A DNA stretch of 64,000 nucleotides from Zootoca vivipara (lineage: Eukaryota). Shown here one piece after another: positions 48,801 through 59,841 of this stretch (position 1 is the stretch's first letter; each line of letters opens with the position of its first letter). The DNA lies in contig NC_083291.1 in assembly GCF_963506605.1 (NCBI RefSeq), positions 38,254,001 to 38,318,000 on the forward strand. The letters run 5' to 3'. The translations under genes were made by a program, and so were the position numbers. The notes below the pieces were generated by a model. The model did not search any database and was not told where the DNA came from. It saw only the letters and a program-made list of their open reading frames with translations.

Positions 48801-51049
48801 TCTGGGCAACTACCCCATTTATAACCCAAGAGCTGCTTGCCTGCCCCATGTCTATTAAGCAAACCACCTGCTTACCACGACAGACAGGTACACATCGCCC
48901 AAGGCTGAAGAAACGGGAATGCAGCTCCTTGGTGAAGCAGATGTCTGCAGCTGTTGGAGTCCTGGGAGAGCAAAGATACTGTTAAAACCACATCACAACA
49001 AGTTTTCATCTGGGCTCTCCAAAACCTTGGGAGCTCAAACTGAATATGATGGGCAGCCCTACAGATACCCAGGAGCTTTTATTTTTATTTATTCAATTTG
49101 TATACCGCCCTAACCCTGTAGATCTCAGCTCATTCCTTCCTCACAGGGAATAACCACCTTTCCCAAAACTTACCAGCGCATTTTCTGCAAGTTCCAGACG
49201 TGCCGTAATTTCAGGATCCCTGGGGGAGGCACAACTACATTAATACAGGGGACAATCCAAATTAAATCTACCATAGCTAATGCAGAAAAATGCTGCATGC
49301 ACAGGAGTCAGGCTTGGGGTTCATCCTTAAGAAAGGCAAGTTAAGCCTCCTTCATGAAGGTCCTAAGGGAGTGTGGGGAGCACCCATTCTTGCCCACCGT
49401 GCTCCAGACCTCAGGAAGGTGATTGGCCTGGTCTCTCAAAACAGAAGAGCAATACCTTCCCCTTCCCATCCACCAGGTGGCAGCACTTCCCTTCTAGTAC
49501 CCTACCCCACAGATGTGGATCATCCATGCAGGACTGGTGGTTGCAGACCGTCAAAAGAGGGGTGCCTTCCTGGCGCTTCTCAATAAGCTCATACAGTACT
49601 TCTTTGTTATGGACATTCACCTGGTTCATATACCCTGAAAGGGGGGAGAGAGCAAAATGACAGCTCAGTGACAGCAAAGGTACAAAGAGAGTGTACAGTA
49701 GAGAGAAAGGTTGAGGAGTTCCTAGGCTCCGATTCAGGCTGGAGCAAGATAGGTCACTCTGCCTAGGTTCCCAGTGCTCTATCTAGCCATTAATAACAAT
49801 GGATAGCTGCAATAATTTGTGGCTTTCCATATTTAGCAGTCATATGGCAGTTTTGAGCAAAGTATTAGGTAAATGAAAAGGTAAAGGACCCCGGAACGAT
49901 TAAGTCCAGTCAAAGTATTACACACAGTTCACATACGACGCTGCCTTGGTACTGGCTACACGGACTGGCAGCAGAACTGTCTGGTTCCTGGGTTCAGGGG
50001 TCTTTCCCAGACATGCCTGGAGATGCCAAGGATTGAACGTGGGACACTCTGCATTCAGAGCGCAAGCTGCCCCACTGAGATGCACACATTTGTTTTGCTG
50101 CGACCCTTTAAACAACCTTGCAAGGCCAATACTGTTACGTCCACCATTGCCAGAGTGCTAGTAGCGAATGGGTTGCCTAAAGATGCCTAGCGAGCTCTTG
50201 GCAGAGATGAGCTACAAGAGCTCTCATTAGGAGCATGGGATGGGGAGAAATGGGGAAAACAGAAGACCTAGTTTTATACAAGACCTGGCTCCTGGGTTCT
50301 GGTGGCCCTCAGGCAAGACTGAGTGGCTATAAAGCAGAGGGAGAGGCCAAGATATGTAAACCACGGACAGCTCCCTCACTGGCTTTGCATTCACCAGGTC
50401 CTCTCTCTTCTCTCATAAAAAGTCCAGGGCCAGATTGTGGCCTTCCAGGTCTATCTAGCCTCAAAACTCTCCTCTGGCTGCACCACTTCTGAGCCCTGCT
50501 TTTCACCCTGCTTCCTGAGAGATTTTGTCTCTTGCTCCACCCACTTTTGCTTCTGGCTCCACCTCCCACTGGCATATGGCCCCCAGACGTTTGCCCAAGA
50601 GACAATTTGTTCCTCAGGTGGAAATAGGTTCCCCACCCCCACCCTATGCCCACCCCTGTCACTAATCTAGTTTTGACCCCTAGAGCTCAGTCTCCATTTC
50701 CCTGCCCAGCAGAAGAGAGTCAAAACCCCGGGATCCCGTCCACTTCTACATATTAAGATTCTAAGGAATCTCCACATGTCTTCCTGAGCTCCAGGCCCAG
50801 CATGAGTCTCTTGTACTGCTGTAGCCTTCCAGGGAGCCTAAATGGCAATGCCGTCGAGCATTCTTGCACACCCTGCCATGAACCTTTTTTGTCCCTTTTG
50901 TGACAGTAGCTGTGTAGGGGCAGACGTTACAGGTACTCACTGGTCCAGAAGCAGCTGTAGGTGCCCACCAAGCCCATGACCACCCTGCTGGCCAAGATCC
51001 AGGGCAGATGCGGGGCCCGGGGAAAGGGCCATTTCACCTCAAGGGGCAT
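45828..51049 (-). CDS. TAFAZZIN: Tafazzin, cardiolipin transacylase, 10 coding exons, 262 aa (no equivalent of primate exon 5)
   Basis: Exons: 50941-51049, 49506-49634, 49174-49219, 48876-48961, 48373-48453, 48187-48228, 48044-48106, 47135-47187, 46905-46982, 45828-45929; total 789 nt. N-terminus [10 protein letters not shown], acyltransferase motifs NHQSCMDDP (HxxxxD) and [11 protein letters not shown]. Confidence 0.97.
46279..46414. mobile_element. Palindromic 136-bp hAT MITE in the last TAFAZZIN intron
   Basis: Perfect 8-bp TSD GTCTTACT. Four mismatches by eye to the copy at 43132. Confidence 0.9.
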
Positions 51050-52098: not shown

Positions 52099-53093
52099 TC
52101 CTATATAATAATGTCCATGTTGTCCCTGCGTCCAGATGTCCCGTGTGTCCCTGGGGTACTGCGCATGTACCCCAGAGACACAGGGATTGGACGGAGGGAC
52201 AACGGCCAACCGCCGCTCCGCCAACCGCCGCTCCGAAGCCCAGTCTCATGCTGGAGGTGCACGGCGAGGCGGCGGGGGAAAGAAGCGCTCCCCCCGGCAG
52301 CCTTGCCGCGCACCTCCGGCATGGGACGGCGCTTCCTCGGCCGAAGCGGCAGCGGGCGCCGAGGGAAGCCGGCTTTGGCTTGGTGGCGGCGGGAAGAAGA
52401 GGAGGAATTCCTCCTCTTTTTCCCGCCGCCGCCAAGCCAGTCCCCAAGCCAAAGTGCGGCGCGGCGGGGGCTTTTCGCCGTTTGCCTTCCCGGAGCGAAG
52501 GGGGAGGCAAACGGCGAAAAGCACCCGCCGCGCCGCACTTCGGCTCGGGGACTGGCTTGGCGTGCGCGGCGAGGCGGTGGGGGGGGGGGAGAAGCGCTCC
52601 TCCCCCCCGCCGCCTCGGCACGCAGCGCCGGCATGGGACGGAGTTTCGGAGAAGGTCTCCGAAGCCCCGTCTCATGCGGGAGGTGCGCGGTGAGGCGGCG
52701 GGGGGGGAGAAGCGCTCCCCCCCCCCTGCGCCTCACCACGCAGCGCCGACATGGGACGGGGCTTCGGAGACCTTCTCCGAAGCCCCGTCTCATGCGGGAG
52801 GTGCGCGGCGAGGCGGCGGGGGGAGAGAAGCGCTCCTCCCCCCCCCCGCCGCCTCACCACGCAGTGCCGGCATGGGACGGAGTTTTGGAGAAGGTCTCCG
52901 AAGCCCCGTCTCATGCGGGAGGTGCGCAGCGGGGGGGGCAGGAGAAGTGCTTCTCTCTCCCCCCCCCCGCCGCCTCGCCACGCACCTCCCGCATGAGACG
53001 GGGCTTCGGAGACCTCCGAAGCTCCGTCCCATGCTGGCGCTGCAGGACAGCAGCGTTCTAGCGCCCGTTTTTAAACGGGCTGAATTCCACTAG
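52099..53093 (+). mobile_element. GC-rich non-autonomous Helitron, family B, with internal repeats of about 120 bp
   Basis: A|TC start, 3' hairpin GCCCGTTT-tt-AAACGGGC, CTAG|T end. Inserted in a (TAA)n tract with no TSD. Confidence 0.8.
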
Positions 53094-53499: not shown

Positions 53500-55800
53500 C
53501 ATGAAATCGGAAGCCCAGGTCGGCTTTCCTACATCAGGGGCGCCCCTGGAGAAGAGGGGGGTCCGCGCGCCCCTTTCCGACCTTTGCCTTGGCGCCTCTC
53601 TCTCTCTCTCTGCCGGGGGGGGGGGGTGTCTGGGAGCCCCTTTCCCTCCCCGGAGCCCCTCGCCCTCGCCCTTCTCTACCACGCAGCCGCTGCCGGCTGC
53701 CGGCTGGTTTCTGCAAGGCCCAGAAACCCAAGAGGGGCAGCTTCCCCACCTCGGCGCTGGGGGAAGTGGGTGCCAGACGGAGATGACAGACTCCGGGAAT
53801 GAAGCGAAAGGAAAGAGGCGCCTTTGTTCACCCACCGCGCCTCCTCTCCTCTTCTCCCCATTGCACCCCACTCACCTCCTGCTCCTGCTAGCTGCCTTCA
53901 AACGCCTCTTCTTTCTTATCGCGGCGAGAAAGAAGCAGCTCGGCCCAGAAGCGCCCCAGTTTTGCAAACTCTCTTCCCACGCAAATATTTTTATTTATTT
54001 ATTTTAATTTTAATAAAGAGGCGTAATGAGAAACAGAGGGTCGTAAAGCGTTCTCGGACACTTAGCGGTCGTGAACTGTCGCAAAAGGTTAATCGAGTGA
54101 CACGCGCGCTTTCTGGCAAGGCCTCGGAGCCGGATGGTGGTTCAGAGTGACGCGCGCGAACGGAGCTTCCGCTAAATGTTGAAGGCGCCCCATTAGGCAG
54201 CAATGTCGCTCTACCCCGTGGCATCTCTATGGTGGAATCCCTATTCGCCTCGCCTTGGGAGTTAAAAGTGGGAAATATCCTGCTTTAATTTAGTGAGGAA
54301 TAATCACGAATAATGAACCTCCTCCGGCCTTGTTTTATGATACGAGTGGAGAACTCCGGCATTTTGAAAGACAAACAGAAACAGACAGGACCGGCTTTTG
54401 TTCTTAGATTAGGAACTTCCTTATGGGTTTTAAAAAAAGAGCTGGCTGAGCTCGCTTAAAACATGCTGCCCCCCTTTCATATAAGCATATTTTATTCCTT
54501 ATCTCTCTGTGTGTGATACACATATATTTTAAATGGGAGCAAACACAATATTCCAAGTGCAATGTCCCTATATTTGACGCCCTTTAACAGCGCGATCCTA
54601 TACATGTTACTCAAAGGGACTTGCTTTGTTTCAGGAGACTCACGGCGCAATCCTGGTGCACGTTTTCAAAGAAGTGCTACTGAGTTACTCCCAGAAAAGC
54701 GTGCATATAGAATTGCAACCTTTATTTAATGTAATAGATCACGGGATATTACTTTGTTTTGTATGTTGTTTATTTCAAGTCATAACCATAGCTGCCAAGT
54801 TATCCCTTTTTTAAAGGGATTTTCCCTTATGCTGAATAGGCTTCCTCGTGAGAAAAGGGAAAACTTGGCAGCTATGGTCATAACTACTTGTATCGGATCG
54901 GATTGCTATAAGATGTGCTACCTTTGCGGTATGTGTTGTTGCTTCTTCAGCTTGTAAAGCCCCTTGCATATACAGAAGGTGATATGCAAATAAAAAGTGA
55001 TGATGGCGATTTGTAACTGAATCTCATCTCGCCACATGCAAATCCTTTCCCCCATGGAAATGCGTTGAAGCCGAAAGCGTGAATGGATGTAGCACGCGAG
55101 CATCCAAACGGCAGCCAGTCCTAAAGCAAAGATCTCTCTTATTGTGAAGGAGAAAAACAAACGCAACGGCGTGAAACGTTTGGCAAAGGACTACATTTCC
55201 CAGTAGCCGCTTTAGGGTTGACGCTAGAAGCCGTCTCCAGCTGGCCGAAGCTTCCCCGTGCCCCGGTTCCCATTCATCAGTCCCGGAGCCGTGCACGATC
55301 TCGGGAGCCGCCGGCATGTCTTCTTCTTCTGCAGCGGCGGAACCCGAGAGCAAAGCGCTGCCCATCGTCGTGAGGACGTACTTCTCCGAGGTCGTGGAAG
55401 ACGACGGGAACTTCATCCAGGCAGTTTGTAGCCTGTGCAGGCACAAGAGGAAGACCATCCGAGGGCAGCACAAGGCGCCATCCAATTTCACCAAGCACGT
55501 GCAGGTACAGAATGGCAGCAAAGGGCCACTACGCATTCGTACGTGAGCCAGCCCGATTTGCAGATAGGTTTAAGATTAGCGATCCGGTAGCCCCCGTGGG
55601 CACGGCCGGCATGCAAACTCCCCGTGCCATCGTGCAAAAGGGCCTGCGGCTCAGGTGCTCCGTGCGCTTCTACGCGGCAGGGCCGCTTATTACGCTCAGG
55701 AGCGCTTTGCCGTTATTACCTATCCACCCGCGCGGCAGCATCTTGTTTCGGACCTCGATGTCGCCTGTTTCGAGTGCGCGCGTTCAAGCAACCTTGGCCG
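53500..55800. promoter_or_regulatory. Divergent promoter region: CpG islands of TAFAZZIN (about 53500-54260) and of the transposase-derived gene (about 55050-55800)
   Basis: Two CpG-rich blocks with oppositely oriented first exons. A ZNF143/THAP11-type motif ACTACATTTCCCAGTAGCC is at 55190-55208. Confidence 0.65.
53876..53970 (-). other. TAFAZZIN: Probable non-coding first exon of TAFAZZIN (5' boundary approximate)
   Basis: The ATG-bearing exon is preceded by an acceptor (ctctttggcag, exon start 51093). A strong donor GAG|gtgagt lies at 53870-53875 inside a CpG island. Confidence 0.6.
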
Positions 55801-58800
55801 TCCTCAGGAGATCAGATTCAGGCCATGGGCCTCCTCCTGCAGTTCCTAATCTCTACCCTTAGGGCTGGAACAGGGATGTGGCTCTCCAGGTGTTGTTGTT
55901 GAGCTACCGTACTTTCATCAGCCCCAAGCCAACATGACCAGTGAGTGGGTCAGGCATGGTCCAGCAAGATCTGGAGAGCCACAAGTTCCCTGCCCCCAGG
56001 CTAAATAAAGAGTTCTCTGCATTGCAAGGAATGAAGTCTGGATTCTTACATCACCTGATTCCACAAATTGTGGCTGACCTCTCCAGTCCTCAAGGATCCT
56101 AGTCTTGGACTGGAGAAGGGATAGCATGCCACGTTGGAGAACCACATCAAAATATTTTCGTACAATTACAAATGCCAAACTACAGCAGATAAATTTATTG
56201 TCTTTAGGATGATCTTACTTTAAAATAATAATAATGAAATAGGAAATGATTAGAACATAAGAAGAATCTTGCAGGGATGGGGAAGCTGTGGACCTCCAAG
56301 TGTTGTTGAACTACGGCTCCCATCGTCCCTGACCACCGGCCATGGTGGCTGAGGGTGATGGGAGTCTGACGTCCTCTGGAGAGTCACCAGTCCCGTCATC
56401 CCATGTTTAGTGGCTCCAGCCAAAGGTCCATAGGAAACCATTATTCTGTTTGGTAAGGCCTGCCAGATGCTTCAGGAAAGCTCATAAAATGAGTGGGAAA
56501 GTACCCATCACCAATTTTTTTATGCCCAGCATTTGGTATTTTACAGATATACTGCCTCTGAATACTGTATGCTGATTCTAATCGGTTGTCATAGCTAAGA
56601 GACTTTGCAAAAAGCATACCTTAAAATCTGAGGTGTTATTAAGTTTTAGCAAGTTTAGTGGATCCTTTTGCTTCTTTGCTTTTTCCATTTAGCAATTTGG
56701 CAGCACTCCTGCAAATTTCTCTGTAAGGTTATGGAGACTGGATATTTTAAAATAAAAATAAAGGGGCTGGATTCAGCTAATGAGTGGACATCCACGTAAG
56801 GACTAGTGCAATGGGACTTTCCTCCCCACTGCAACCCCCATTGGCTTAGGTTGGGGTTGGGAGAATCCCCAGAACAGCACATGGGGTGTGGTAGGAGGAG
56901 AGGGGAGTTGATTCCATCAAGGAAGCAGAAATGTTTGTGCTGATGAAGCAATCTCCTTAGTGCTATGTTGAATTCCTCCCAATATCTGTGAGATCCTGAC
57001 TCCACAGGCCACTGAGCAATTCATCAGGTCTGTCAGTATCTTTGCATGTGACAAGCATTTTTCTATTTCTGTATGATTCCCACAATAATTTCTATATCCT
57101 ACAGCACTGATTGAAATAGTTCTCCTCTGTTGCAGAGAATCCATGGAGAAAAATATCTGAAGCTGATGCACAAAAGGAAAAATATCCATTGCAAACAAAT
57201 TGGTACTGGCATGTTAAAGGTTTCTGAGAAAATTCCAAAATACTGTGAGCCTCGTTGGGACCCTTACTCACAGTATCAGCTCTGTGATCGGTCTTTATCC
57301 GAAGAAAACCTGGATCAACTAATTCTCAATTTTCTCATCACTGATATGCTTCCCTTGTCGATTGTCGACGGAAGTGGCTTCCACACTTTGATTAAAGGGA
57401 TTATTCCCAGTGCTACAGTCACTTCTACAGAAACCTTACGGAACAACCTTGCAAGACAGTATGCCTTGGTTCTTGAAAAAATTAAAAGGAAATTGGACTC
57501 AGTTTCTTATGTTTGTACAACTGCAGATGTGTGGACGCATCAGGGGCAAAGTTATGTGGGCGTCACATGCCACTGGATCAATTCAGCTAACTTGACAAGA
57601 GAATCTGCTGCCTTAAGCTTCCAACGCTTTCCTGGGCCATGTTCATACAGCAAGCTTGCTTCTGTGCTGACTGAGATCCATTCGCAGTATGATTTGGATT
57701 CCACAAAAATAACACACATTGTCACGGACAACAGGAACCATTTCCAGAAAACCTTTCAGCTGTTCCCTGGACCCAAAGAGCAGCTGGACCAGCAAGAGGG
57801 GAATGATGTGGAGAAGCAAGTGGATCCCACGGATGCTGATGCCTGTGTCAATGTGCGCATTTATGAAGCCTTGTCAAATGACACCATTGATTCTTCGGAC
57901 CTCTTCTACCTGCCACCCCGTGTGGCCTGCTTTTCCTGCACACTCAGCTTTGTGGCTGCGACAGCTGCTTCCAAAGCACTGGCCACCAACCCTCCATACA
58001 AGCACCTTTTCCAAAGCGTGGCAAGCAAATGCTGTGCTTTAAGGAATGTTTCCCAAGATAGCTTGAAAAATGCAGAGCTTGTCAATTACGCCCTTGGAAA
58101 GTCTCTCCCCAAACCAGCCTCCGTATGGAATTCTGAGTTTGACTGTTTCTGTCGCATATACGACATGCGTGACACGGTGAATCTCATAATGGCCTGCCTC
58201 CAGCTTCCAAAATTTACCAACCTGGAGCTGGAGTTCTTAGGGGAGTGGTTGGAGGTGATGTCTCCGATCGCTACAGCACTTGACAAGCTTCAGACAGAAG
58301 AGGCCATCGAGTCTTTCTGTGGTGCTGTCCTGCCCATGGTGCTTGTGTTAAACAGCCGACTTGAGTCGGTGTCTCCAAAATACACTTCTTGCCTGGCAGA
58401 TGCACTGAAGGGGGAGCTTCAGAAGCAGTTTGCGCACATGCTGACCTTTGACACAGCCGTAAGTAGTAAAAATACCAAGCCACTAGTCGTTGCTTCTGTA
58501 TCACATCCATTTTTTAAATTGCGTTGGCTGCAAAGTCAAGATGATAAGAAGATTGCTCAGGAGCTTTTCTTACGGGAGCTGCTCCGCTGTGACACTCTGT
58601 CGTCGAAGGCTGACAGTCAAGCAGCAGCAATGAAAGCTGCCGACGATTTTTATGGCTTTGATGATCAGGGAGTGGCGGCAGCTGAGTCTGCATTAAGAAA
58701 TATTGGGGTGCAGTTCCTCAACGATCCATCGCATGAGCTGAGGCAACTGAAAAGATACCCAGCCATCGCCAAGCTTTTTATCAAGTTCAACACCACTCTG

Positions 58801-58932
58801 CCAAATTCTGCTCCTGTAGAAAAACTGCTCTGCCACAATGGACAAATCCTGGGACCCAAAATGGCCTCCCTTCAGGATGACGTGTTAGAGATGATGATGT
58901 TGTTGCAGAAAAACTCCCAGTTTCTTGTATGA
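55316..58932 (+). CDS. BED zinc-finger, Tol2-like hAT transposase-derived protein (ZBED-like), 2 exons, 661 aa
   Basis: Exon 1 55316-55504 (CAG|gtacag) joins exon 2 57136-58932 (ctctgttgcag|AGA) in phase 0, completing the BED finger CSLC...SNFTKHVQ|RIH. hAT motifs: CTTADVWT, YVGVTCHWI, RESAAL, IVTDN, VWNS, FLGEWLEVMSPIATALDKLQ, HPFFKLRW and the C-terminal YPAIAKLFIKFNTTLPNSAPVEKL. No stops or frameshifts. Confidence 0.92.
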
Positions 58933-59781
58933 TATATGTCCATAGAGCAGTGGCCTAAAGCCAACATGGTGCCCTCCATATGTTGTTGGACGGCAACTCC
59001 TATAATCATCTCTACCCATTGGTCATACTGGCTGGAGTTGGAGTGCCACAGGCTCCCACACCACTGCTCTGCAGGCCAGTTTTTCCACATGTTCCACCTT
59101 CAGAAAAACTCTTTCCATGTTGCTCCTTCTGCTGAGGCACCAATGAAACTGTCACATCCCTCCTATGCATTGCAGAGTGTTTTGGGGCATGTTCTAGGGC
59201 TGGCTCAAGAAAGGTGCTGTTGTTGCTGTTGCTGTACTAAGCAGCGTAGCTATGTTGGGATACAGGGACTCACCAGTAACTTGCCAGTACCTTGCCCTTA
59301 AGTAGACCTCAGTCCCTACCACCAAGCAACGACAGGGCAATGAATCCTGAGGAGGTCGTGTTTGCTCTCCTTGCCTCCATTTGTGCTAGAAGGGGCATGG
59401 TAGCTCTTGTTCATCTGCTTGGTGGGAGAGATACCTGGAGGATATAAAGCCACAGGGAGAGGGAGGAGGGGCAGTGGAAGGACAGAGAACAGGCTACCTA
59501 GGCATCTAAGAGGGCTCTCCACACAAATAAGGGTGGCTTGGCCCATGCAATCTTACGCAATCTTGCTGAGTTTTCCCCAGACAGTTGCCCATTGCGCCTG
59601 CATGGTGAGGACCAGACCTGTGTTCACTCAGTTCATGCTGAGCACTGGACAAGCTTGTTGGCTTTCATAAAAACTTGAAATTTGAAATTTGCTGCTTTGA
59701 ACTGTATTCTTTTGATAAATATTTTACACTATGTTTTATGTAAAGCATAGCATTGATTAAGTGACATATACATTTTGTTAA

Positions 59782-59787
59782 AATAAA
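59782..59787 (+). terminator. Probable polyadenylation signal of the transposase-derived gene
   Basis: AATAAA in AT-rich sequence about 850 nt after the stop codon. Confidence 0.55.
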
Positions 59788-59841
59788 ACATTTCCATGGT
59801 CTTGAACTGACAGTGCACCCTGACTGTATATTGCACAGGAA

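What the first reader, a model, noticed from the sequence alone, without database searches (positions are those of the whole stretch)
57526..58821. DDE triad kept, but the CxxH histidine and RW arginine are replaced
Seen: D194 (57526), D261 (57727) and E625 (58819) are intact. CxxH reads CFSC (57928-57939), TRWNS reads SVWNS (58123-58128), and ERLFS reads EKLLC. Established: in the hAT transposase Hermes the DDE residues, the CxxH histidine (H268) and R318/W319 are needed for cleavage and hairpin formation. Inference: the protein has lost transposition chemistry but keeps its fold, oligomerisation and DNA binding. It could be a transcription factor or a dominant-negative repressor of active hAT elements.
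Basis: partly seen in the sequence, partly recalled or inferred. Interest (0 to 1): 0.7.

Follow-up and report, generated by a model that had tools for sequence, protein, structure and literature searches.

The report
Lizard gene tamed from hAT transposase
Lizards carry a spliced, conserved gene derived from a cut-and-paste DNA transposon that keeps the three acidic catalytic residues but has lost five helper residues around them, and its almost unchanged zinc finger means it likely works as a DNA-binding regulator, a known fate for such genes.

Summary
The residues are as reported. They belong to a two-exon gene (55316-55504 + 57136-58932, 661 aa): BED zinc finger plus Tol2-like hAT transposase body, between TAZ and DNASE1L1 in a lacertid lizard. 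It is spliced in three runs, one copy was found, no terminal repeats flank it, and orthologues exist in five lacertids and Elgaria. All six keep D194/D261/E625 and share the lesions. None of 119 DDE-intact relatives lacks all five helper residues. The BED finger is 62/64 identical to Elgaria against 61/86 for the nuclease core, so constraint sits on DNA binding. Best reading: a catalytically dead, ZBED-like DNA-binding regulator from an independent lizard domestication (0.7). A dominant-negative role is unlikely, since no intact cognate element was found in the genome. DDE retention in domesticated ZBEDs is already noted in print as unexplained, and 'DDE kept, His lost' recurs in other relatives, including a second gene in this genome. 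New member of a known kind; a residual nick-only activity is not excluded.

The parts
55316..55504 (+). Coding exon 1 (63 aa): most of the BED finger (C38, C41, H61; recognition helix S56/N57/K60), in a CpG-rich region
   Evidence: matches N-terminus of P0028; donor used in runs X2, X5, X6
55505..57135 (+). GT-AG phase-0 intron splitting the BED finger; same position and phase in relative L010 and in the second genomic ORF L007, so inherited from the transposon
   Evidence: joint 55504>57136 in X5 and X6
57103..57135 (+). Alternative 3' splice acceptor (exon from 57105): adds 31 nt, stop after 64 aa
   Evidence: joint in one contig of run X2; translation
57136..58932 (+). Coding exon 2 (598 aa + stop): last BED His (H66), linker, dimerisation-type helices, RNase H core with insertion domain
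57292..57504 (+). Helical region aligned to the Hermes intertwined dimerisation domain (aa 116-186); dimerisation itself untested
   Evidence: profile alignment to Hermes; weak PF10683 match, E 0.02-0.14, below cut-off
57526..57534 (+). D194 (first catalytic Asp) and W196 (Hermes W182 equivalent), kept in 6 of 6 orthologues
57727..57729 (+). D261, second catalytic Asp, kept in 6 of 6
57928..57939 (+). CFSC in place of CxxH (His to Cys at 331, 6 of 6); L335 and D340 of the same helix also changed
58114..58128 (+). PASVW: RW loop one residue short and without Arg; W394 kept (6 of 6)
58819..58833 (+). EKLLC: catalytic E625 kept; Arg to Lys (626) and Ser to Cys (629) in 6 of 6
58858..58869 (+). 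KMAS in place of RRNR (Hermes K585/R586/R588 transposon-end contacts)
   Evidence: role from PMC4763223
58933..59796 (+). 3' UTR with AATAAA at 59782
   Evidence: contigs of X1 and X2 end at 59761 and 59796
50941..51049 (-). Context: first coding exon of tafazzin (TAZ), head to head with the gene
   Evidence: motif match with recalled motifs; sequence

Best explanation
This is a spliced, conserved lizard gene derived from a Tol2-like hAT transposase, and it likely acts as a catalytically dead, sequence-specific DNA-binding regulator of the ZBED type. Shown: two exons, splicing, orthologues in Lacertidae and Anguidae with the same lesions, no terminal repeats found, one copy found, near-invariant BED finger. 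Inferred steps: (1) an element inserted between TAZ and DNASE1L1 before Laterata and Toxicofera split and lost its ends; (2) it lost the residues that hold the DNA at the active site (His of CxxH, Arg of RW, the Arg and Ser after the Glu, the basic end-binding patch), which would abolish hairpin formation and transposition; (3) the body likely still dimerises as in Hermes and presents two or more BED fingers, whose S56/N57/K60 helix would read short major-groove motifs, possibly AAGT(A)-like ones such as those at the ends of related elements; (4) the DDE residues likely persist as part of the fold or as a metal site without productive chemistry.
For: Fixed lesions in 6 of 6 orthologues; 13 of 79 family-conserved columns lost in all six, 57 kept, 9 variable. 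None of 119 DDE-intact, fully covered relatives lacks all five helper residues; 85 keep all five. BED finger 64/64 identical to Lacerta, 62/64 to Elgaria, against 61/86 for the RNase H core (Fisher p 2e-5); against an intact full-length relative the two regions are alike, 39/64 and 48/86. 22 listed coding differences to run X1: 13 synonymous, 9 non-synonymous over 312 and 1086 sites, p 2e-4; p 0.006 if all 7 unlisted differences were non-synonymous. Splicing in X5, X6. Model pLDDT 83.9, BED about 90; Hermes Z 24.7, rmsd 3.7, 409 aligned; N-terminal part matches BED clusters at 0.94 and the family profile hits ZBED2 BED 2djr at E 0.002. Hermes H268A abolishes transposition (PMC5225508); Kat1 CXXH mutant makes no hairpins and the KRRR mutant is inactive (PMC4763223); Hermes BED reads bases with S66/N67/R70 (PMC10368747).
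Against: No binding, localisation or activity data. Raw RNA reads of three runs (6% sampled) gave almost no cover of the gene, so expression there is low. In one run of the same species the assembled junction uses the frameshifting acceptor. D, D, E and both Trp are kept in all six, which a fully dead site does not need, though at about 75% identity three kept residues are not significant by themselves. The protein has no Pfam zf-BED hit of its own. No orthologue turned up in snakes or iguanians, which would mean losses or missing annotation. Synteny in Elgaria was not checked.
Confidence: 0.7

Rival explanations
1. The protein keeps a reduced chemistry: BED-targeted single-strand nicking (or another metal-dependent reaction) by the intact DDE, without hairpin formation.
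For: D194, D261, E625, W196 and W394 kept in 6 of 6. The Kat1 CXXH mutant still nicks DNA (PMC4763223). 'DDE kept, His lost' recurs in 7 of 119 relatives and in L002, on separate branches of the quick tree. [quoted passage not shown] The new CxxC could bind a metal (speculation).
Against: The basic end-binding patch is gone, and the matching Kat1 mutant is fully inactive. The nuclease core is the least conserved ordered region against Elgaria. Residues right after D261 vary among orthologues (DNRNH, DNGNH, DSRSN).
Confidence: 0.12
2. It represses mobile hAT elements, by poisoning transposase oligomers or by occupying their ends.
For: Dimerisation-type helices and the BED finger are kept; repression of transposons by derived transposases is established knowledge (recalled).
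Against: Three genome searches found only the gene itself, one distant ORF that also lacks the His (L002, 33-35%), a ZBED1-like ORF and one decayed fragment. Long conservation without a partner is not explained. The searches score only the best candidates, so distant hAT families and non-autonomous copies were not surveyed.
Confidence: 0.08
3. It is a protein-interaction scaffold or only the BED exon matters (for example as a 5' exon shared with DNASE1L1), the rest being carried along.
For: NCBI files the Lacerta and P. lilfordi proteins as DNASE1L1 isoforms; truncated isoforms are annotated in P. muralis; the alternative acceptor gives a 64-aa product.
Against: Exon 2 is open and constrained (insertion domain 196/240 and C-terminus 72/86 identical to Elgaria; synonymous excess). 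DNASE1L1 has its own start and signal-peptide-like exon about 3 kb beyond the window. H66 of the finger lies in exon 2.
Confidence: 0.08
4. It is a decaying transposon fossil or a still active transposase.
For: Very low raw-read cover in three runs; DDE intact.
Against: Open frame and shared lesions across Laterata and Toxicofera, purifying signal, no terminal repeats, one copy found.
Confidence: 0.02

Closest known systems
Domesticated ZBED genes (ZBED1/DREF, ZBED4, ZBED6, ZBEDX)
   Same: BED finger plus full hAT body, fixed host locus, DDE triad kept (PMC3606216); enzymatic activity rarely kept while DNA binding is (PMC10368747).
   Different: Not at any ZBED locus listed in that paper's Table 1; found only in lizards; nearest relatives are intact Tol2-like transposases from unnamed metagenome contigs at 40-43%; keeps the element's own intron; a ZBED1-like ORF lies elsewhere in the genome (L003).
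Hermes transposase (Musca domestica)
   Same: Same fold (Z 24.7; Foldseek E 5e-13); D180/D248/E572, W182 and W319 equivalents kept.
   Different: 15-16% identity; H268, R318, R573, S576, R586, R588 equivalents lost; CCHH rather than CCHC finger.
Tol2/Tgf2-like hAT transposases
   Same: Motifs TADxW, VTDNGSNF, HPxFKLRW, SAPVERLFS shared with the relatives found; CCHH finger as in Tgf2 (PMC4890040); relatives have AAGTA/TACTT-rich ends like the Tgf2 left end.
   Different: No terminal repeats or AAGTA enrichment near the gene; helper residues lost. Tol2 itself was not aligned; the 'Tol2-like' label rests on recalled motifs and the end arrays.
Kat1 (Kluyveromyces lactis)
   Same: Domesticated single hAT transposase with BED finger.
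   Different: Kat1 keeps CXXH and cuts DNA for mating-type switching; this protein resembles its dead or nick-only mutants.

Membership tests
hAT transposase-derived protein | RNase H core with DDE split by an all-helical insertion domain | tested here: met
hAT transposase-derived protein | N-terminal BED finger | tested here: met
   C38, C41, H61, H66; no direct Pfam hit
Active hAT transposon | CxxH histidine | tested here: not met
   Cys in 6 of 6; His in 158 of 171 relatives
Active hAT transposon | R318/W319 pair | tested here: not met
   Trp kept, Arg absent, loop one residue short
Active hAT transposon | Terminal inverted repeats | tested here: not met
   Longest pair flanking the gene is 75% over 28 nt; the same tool found perfect 21-nt repeats around relative L017
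Active hAT transposon | 8-bp target-site duplication | tested here: inconclusive
   No hit in the window, but the scan did not recover the true ends of its control L017, which shows no duplication
Active hAT transposon | Multiple copies | tested here: not met
   One copy in three searches; counts are lower bounds
Domesticated ZBED-type gene | Orthologues across distant species with intact frame | tested here: met
   Five lacertids and Elgaria
Domesticated ZBED-type gene | Conserved synteny | tested here: inconclusive
   Lacerta and P. lilfordi proteins carry the DNASE1L1 label, implying the same locus; Elgaria not checked
Domesticated ZBED-type gene | Purifying selection | tested here: met
   Synonymous excess against run X1; no cross-species dN/dS, coding DNA of orthologues not available
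Domesticated ZBED-type gene | Transcribed and spliced | tested here: met
   GT-AG joints in contigs of X2, X5, X6; low raw-read cover
Domesticated ZBED-type gene | Sequence-specific DNA binding and gene regulation | not testable with these tools
   inferred only
Known ZBED orthologue groups (ZBED1-9, ZBEDX) | Orthology by locus and phylogeny | tested here: not met
   Locus differs from those in PMC3606216 Table 1; groups with intact metagenome transposases (SH-aLRT 97-100, quick tree); named ZBED4-9 proteins were not in the tree

The most novel reading that the evidence does not exclude
Loss of the CxxH histidine with the DDE kept is a repeated, selected route by which Tol2-like transposases become host enzymes that nick or otherwise act on DNA at BED-bound sites without making hairpins; this lizard gene, the second lizard ORF (L002) and the conserved fish genes would be independent cases, answering why domesticated ZBEDs keep their DDE.
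Probability: 0.12. Interest if true: 0.75.

Novelty: new member of a known kind. Interest (0 to 1): 0.36.

Why it matters
It adds an apparently undescribed, lizard-specific domestication of a hAT transposase, misnamed in databases as a DNASE1L1 isoform or left uncharacterised. Because intact relatives at 40-43% identity (about 60% in the finger) are at hand, it is a clean system for the open question, stated in PMC3606216, of why domesticated ZBEDs keep a DDE triad. If it is simply a dead DNA-binding factor, it is one more ZBED-like gene.

Tried and rejected
Pfam on the single protein: only a sub-threshold Hermes DNA-binding domain match. Single-sequence PDB search found nothing relevant; profiles did. 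Terminal-repeat plus duplication scan: negative but its control failed; no clean ends or duplication could be defined for the deleted relative L012/L013 either, so mobility of the nearest relatives is inferred from motifs, end arrays and L017's repeats, not shown. Fusion with DNASE1L1: no loose end at the exon 1 donor among the rows shown, but 177 loose-end rows were hidden and DNASE1L1 lay outside the stretch; unresolved. No listed holder was on record as RNA; splicing is what marks the contigs as transcripts. The careful tree did not finish; the quick tree of 41 chosen rows (of 180 aligned) was used. Literature: no paper on this gene (0 hits each; 4 general papers; irrelevant hits). The primary Hermes structure papers were not held, so residue roles come from passages of other papers; roles for R573 and S576 are recalled. 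Supplementary tables of the transposase-capture preprint (10.1101/2020.05.07.082677) were not seen and could list this gene. Earlier scan notes: nothing found.

Full report
Observation. The named codons are in the sequence at the stated places. They lie in a 605-codon open frame, 57115-58932. The motif register is confirmed by the nearest relatives, which read VSCFSHTLNL, KPNxTRWNS, SAPVERLFS and PRRNRLSD where this protein reads VACFSCTLSF, KPASVWNS, SAPVEKLLC and PKMASLQD, and by a family profile aligned to Hermes. Among 171 relatives (189 stored proteins less 6 orthologues, 8 fragments or cluster mates and 4 over 900 aa), the His is present in 158 of 171, the RW Arg in 159 of 170, the Arg after the catalytic Glu in 130 of 145, the Ser in 125 of 147, and the R586 equivalent in 104 of 143. 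The RW loop is one residue short, so the change is not a plain substitution; gap placement is ambiguous.

The gene. Exon 1 is 55316-55504 and exon 2 is 57136-58932, giving 661 aa, identical to P0028, which NCBI names from Zootoca vivipara. The GT-AG joint 55504>57136 is in contigs of runs X5 and X6; one contig of X2 uses an acceptor at 57105 that ends the frame after 64 aa. Contigs run to about 59760-59800, by an AATAAA at 59782. Three raw-read RNA runs, sampled at 6%, gave almost no cover, so expression there is low. The intron splits the BED finger at the same codon and phase in metagenome locus L010 and in a second ORF of this genome, so it came with the element. By recalled motifs the neighbours are GDI1, TAZ (minus strand, start 51049), then beyond the window two DNase1-like genes and RPL10. 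DNASE1L1 has its own first coding exon; the database name 'DNASE1L1 isoform X1' for two orthologues is most likely an annotation merge, though a shared 5' exon could not be excluded.

Domestication. Orthologues were found in Lacerta, three Podarcis species, Zootoca (93-100%) and Elgaria (75%). These span Laterata and Toxicofera within Episquamata; the age of that split, roughly 170 million years, is recalled. Three word-based searches and one HMMER search of 50% representatives showed no other vertebrate orthologue, so snakes and iguanians have lost it or it is unannotated. All six share 13 changes at 79 family-conserved columns and keep 57, which argues for one domestication. One copy was found in the genome. 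No terminal inverted repeats flank it, whereas the same tool found perfect 21-nt repeats around relative L017. Against run X1, 13 of 22 listed coding differences are synonymous (312 synonymous and 1086 non-synonymous sites; p 2e-4, or 0.006 if the 7 unlisted differences were all non-synonymous). In a quick tree of 41 chosen rows the lizard proteins form one branch (SH-aLRT 100, stem 0.86) among intact, His-bearing transposases from unnamed metagenome contigs.

Where the constraint lies. The BED finger (aa 13-76) is 64/64 identical to Lacerta and 62/64 to Elgaria; the RNase H core (187-272) is 81/86 and 61/86; insertion domain 230/240 and 196/240; linker 35/39 and 20/39. Finger against core in Elgaria: Fisher p 2e-5. 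Against an intact full-length relative the two are alike, 39/64 and 48/86. The full-length model has mean pLDDT 83.9 with the finger near 90 and matches Hermes at Z 24.7, rmsd 3.7 over 409 residues. The finger matches BED clusters by features (0.94) and, as a profile, ZBED2's BED structure (E 0.002), though Pfam does not hit it directly.

Mechanism. From passages of papers: Hermes H268A and W319A abolish transposition (PMC5225508); D180, D248, R318, W319 and E572 are the residues used to call a hAT active (PMC6027215); in Kat1 the CXXH mutant nicks but makes no hairpin, and the mutant of the K585/R586/R588 equivalents is inactive (PMC4763223); the Hermes finger reads bases with S66, N67 and R70 (PMC10368747 section 7), which align by motif to S56, N57 and K60 here. 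The lizard protein lacks five helper residues at once; of 119 relatives with full cover and intact DDE, 85 keep all five and none lacks all five. Transposition is therefore very likely lost (inference). The likeliest job is that of a ZBED-type regulator: a dimer presenting BED fingers to short motifs. Relatives with the same recognition helix have AAGTA/TACTT-rich ends (60 per kb in L010 1-150 against 2.7 per kb in the window), which makes AAGT(A)-like sites a testable guess. Dimerisation was not tested.

Rivals. A nick-only activity remains possible because D, D, E and both Trp are kept and the Kat1 mutant nicks; against it stand the lost basic patch and the variable residues after D261. Repression of active elements lacks a partner: with an intact relative as query the genome gave only this gene, L002 (33%, also His-less) and one decayed fragment, although such searches are lower bounds. 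A fossil or active transposon is excluded by the points above.

Comparison and novelty. Hayward et al. (PMC3606216, passages) already report that domesticated ZBEDs keep the DDE and call its role unknown; Lannes et al. (passages) note that domesticated hATs rarely keep enzyme activity but keep DNA binding. So the kind is known. This gene is not at a listed ZBED locus, and six literature searches did not find it; passages of two surveys (PMC10027918; bioRxiv 2020.05.07.082677) do not mention it, but their supplements were not seen. The His loss is not unique: 13 of 171 relatives lack it, 7 of them with intact DDE, including a gene conserved across salmonids, one in catostomids, and genes in Denticeps, Amia, a stomatopod and Rhodnius, plus L002 in this genome. 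Verdict: real, a new member of a known kind, interest 0.36; its value is as a tractable case for why the DDE is kept.

Noticed in passing
L007:5600-8007 (G000:C2, about 3.96 Mb; L002): A second intact two-exon BED-hAT ORF with the same phase-0 intron, DDE and RW kept, CxxH His replaced by Tyr; not sister to this gene in the quick tree. Possibly another domesticated gene.
   Followed up: partly
P0073, P0106, P0071, P0084: A branch of fish proteins (salmonids, catostomids, Denticeps, Amia) keeps DDE but has lost the CxxH His; P0073's cluster has 8 members across salmonids. A likely older domestication.
   Followed up: partly
window 57105: Alternative acceptor seen in one contig of run X2 gives a 64-aa product lacking H66; may be a switch that limits full-length protein, or an allele effect.
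   Followed up: partly
L003 (G000:C2, about 2.56 Mb): Intact 677-codon ZBED1-like ORF with CxxH and RW kept and SES at the catalytic Glu.
   Followed up: no
L004-L006 (3-22 kb beyond the window end): Two tandem DNase1-like genes lie between this gene and RPL10.
   Followed up: no
window 52200-53050: GC-rich tandem array with long open frames on both strands in the region upstream of the TAZ coding start.
   Followed up: no
L017:643-3652: A complete-looking 3.0-kb element with perfect 21-nt terminal repeats and all motifs intact, but no target-site duplication in the contig.
   Followed up: partly
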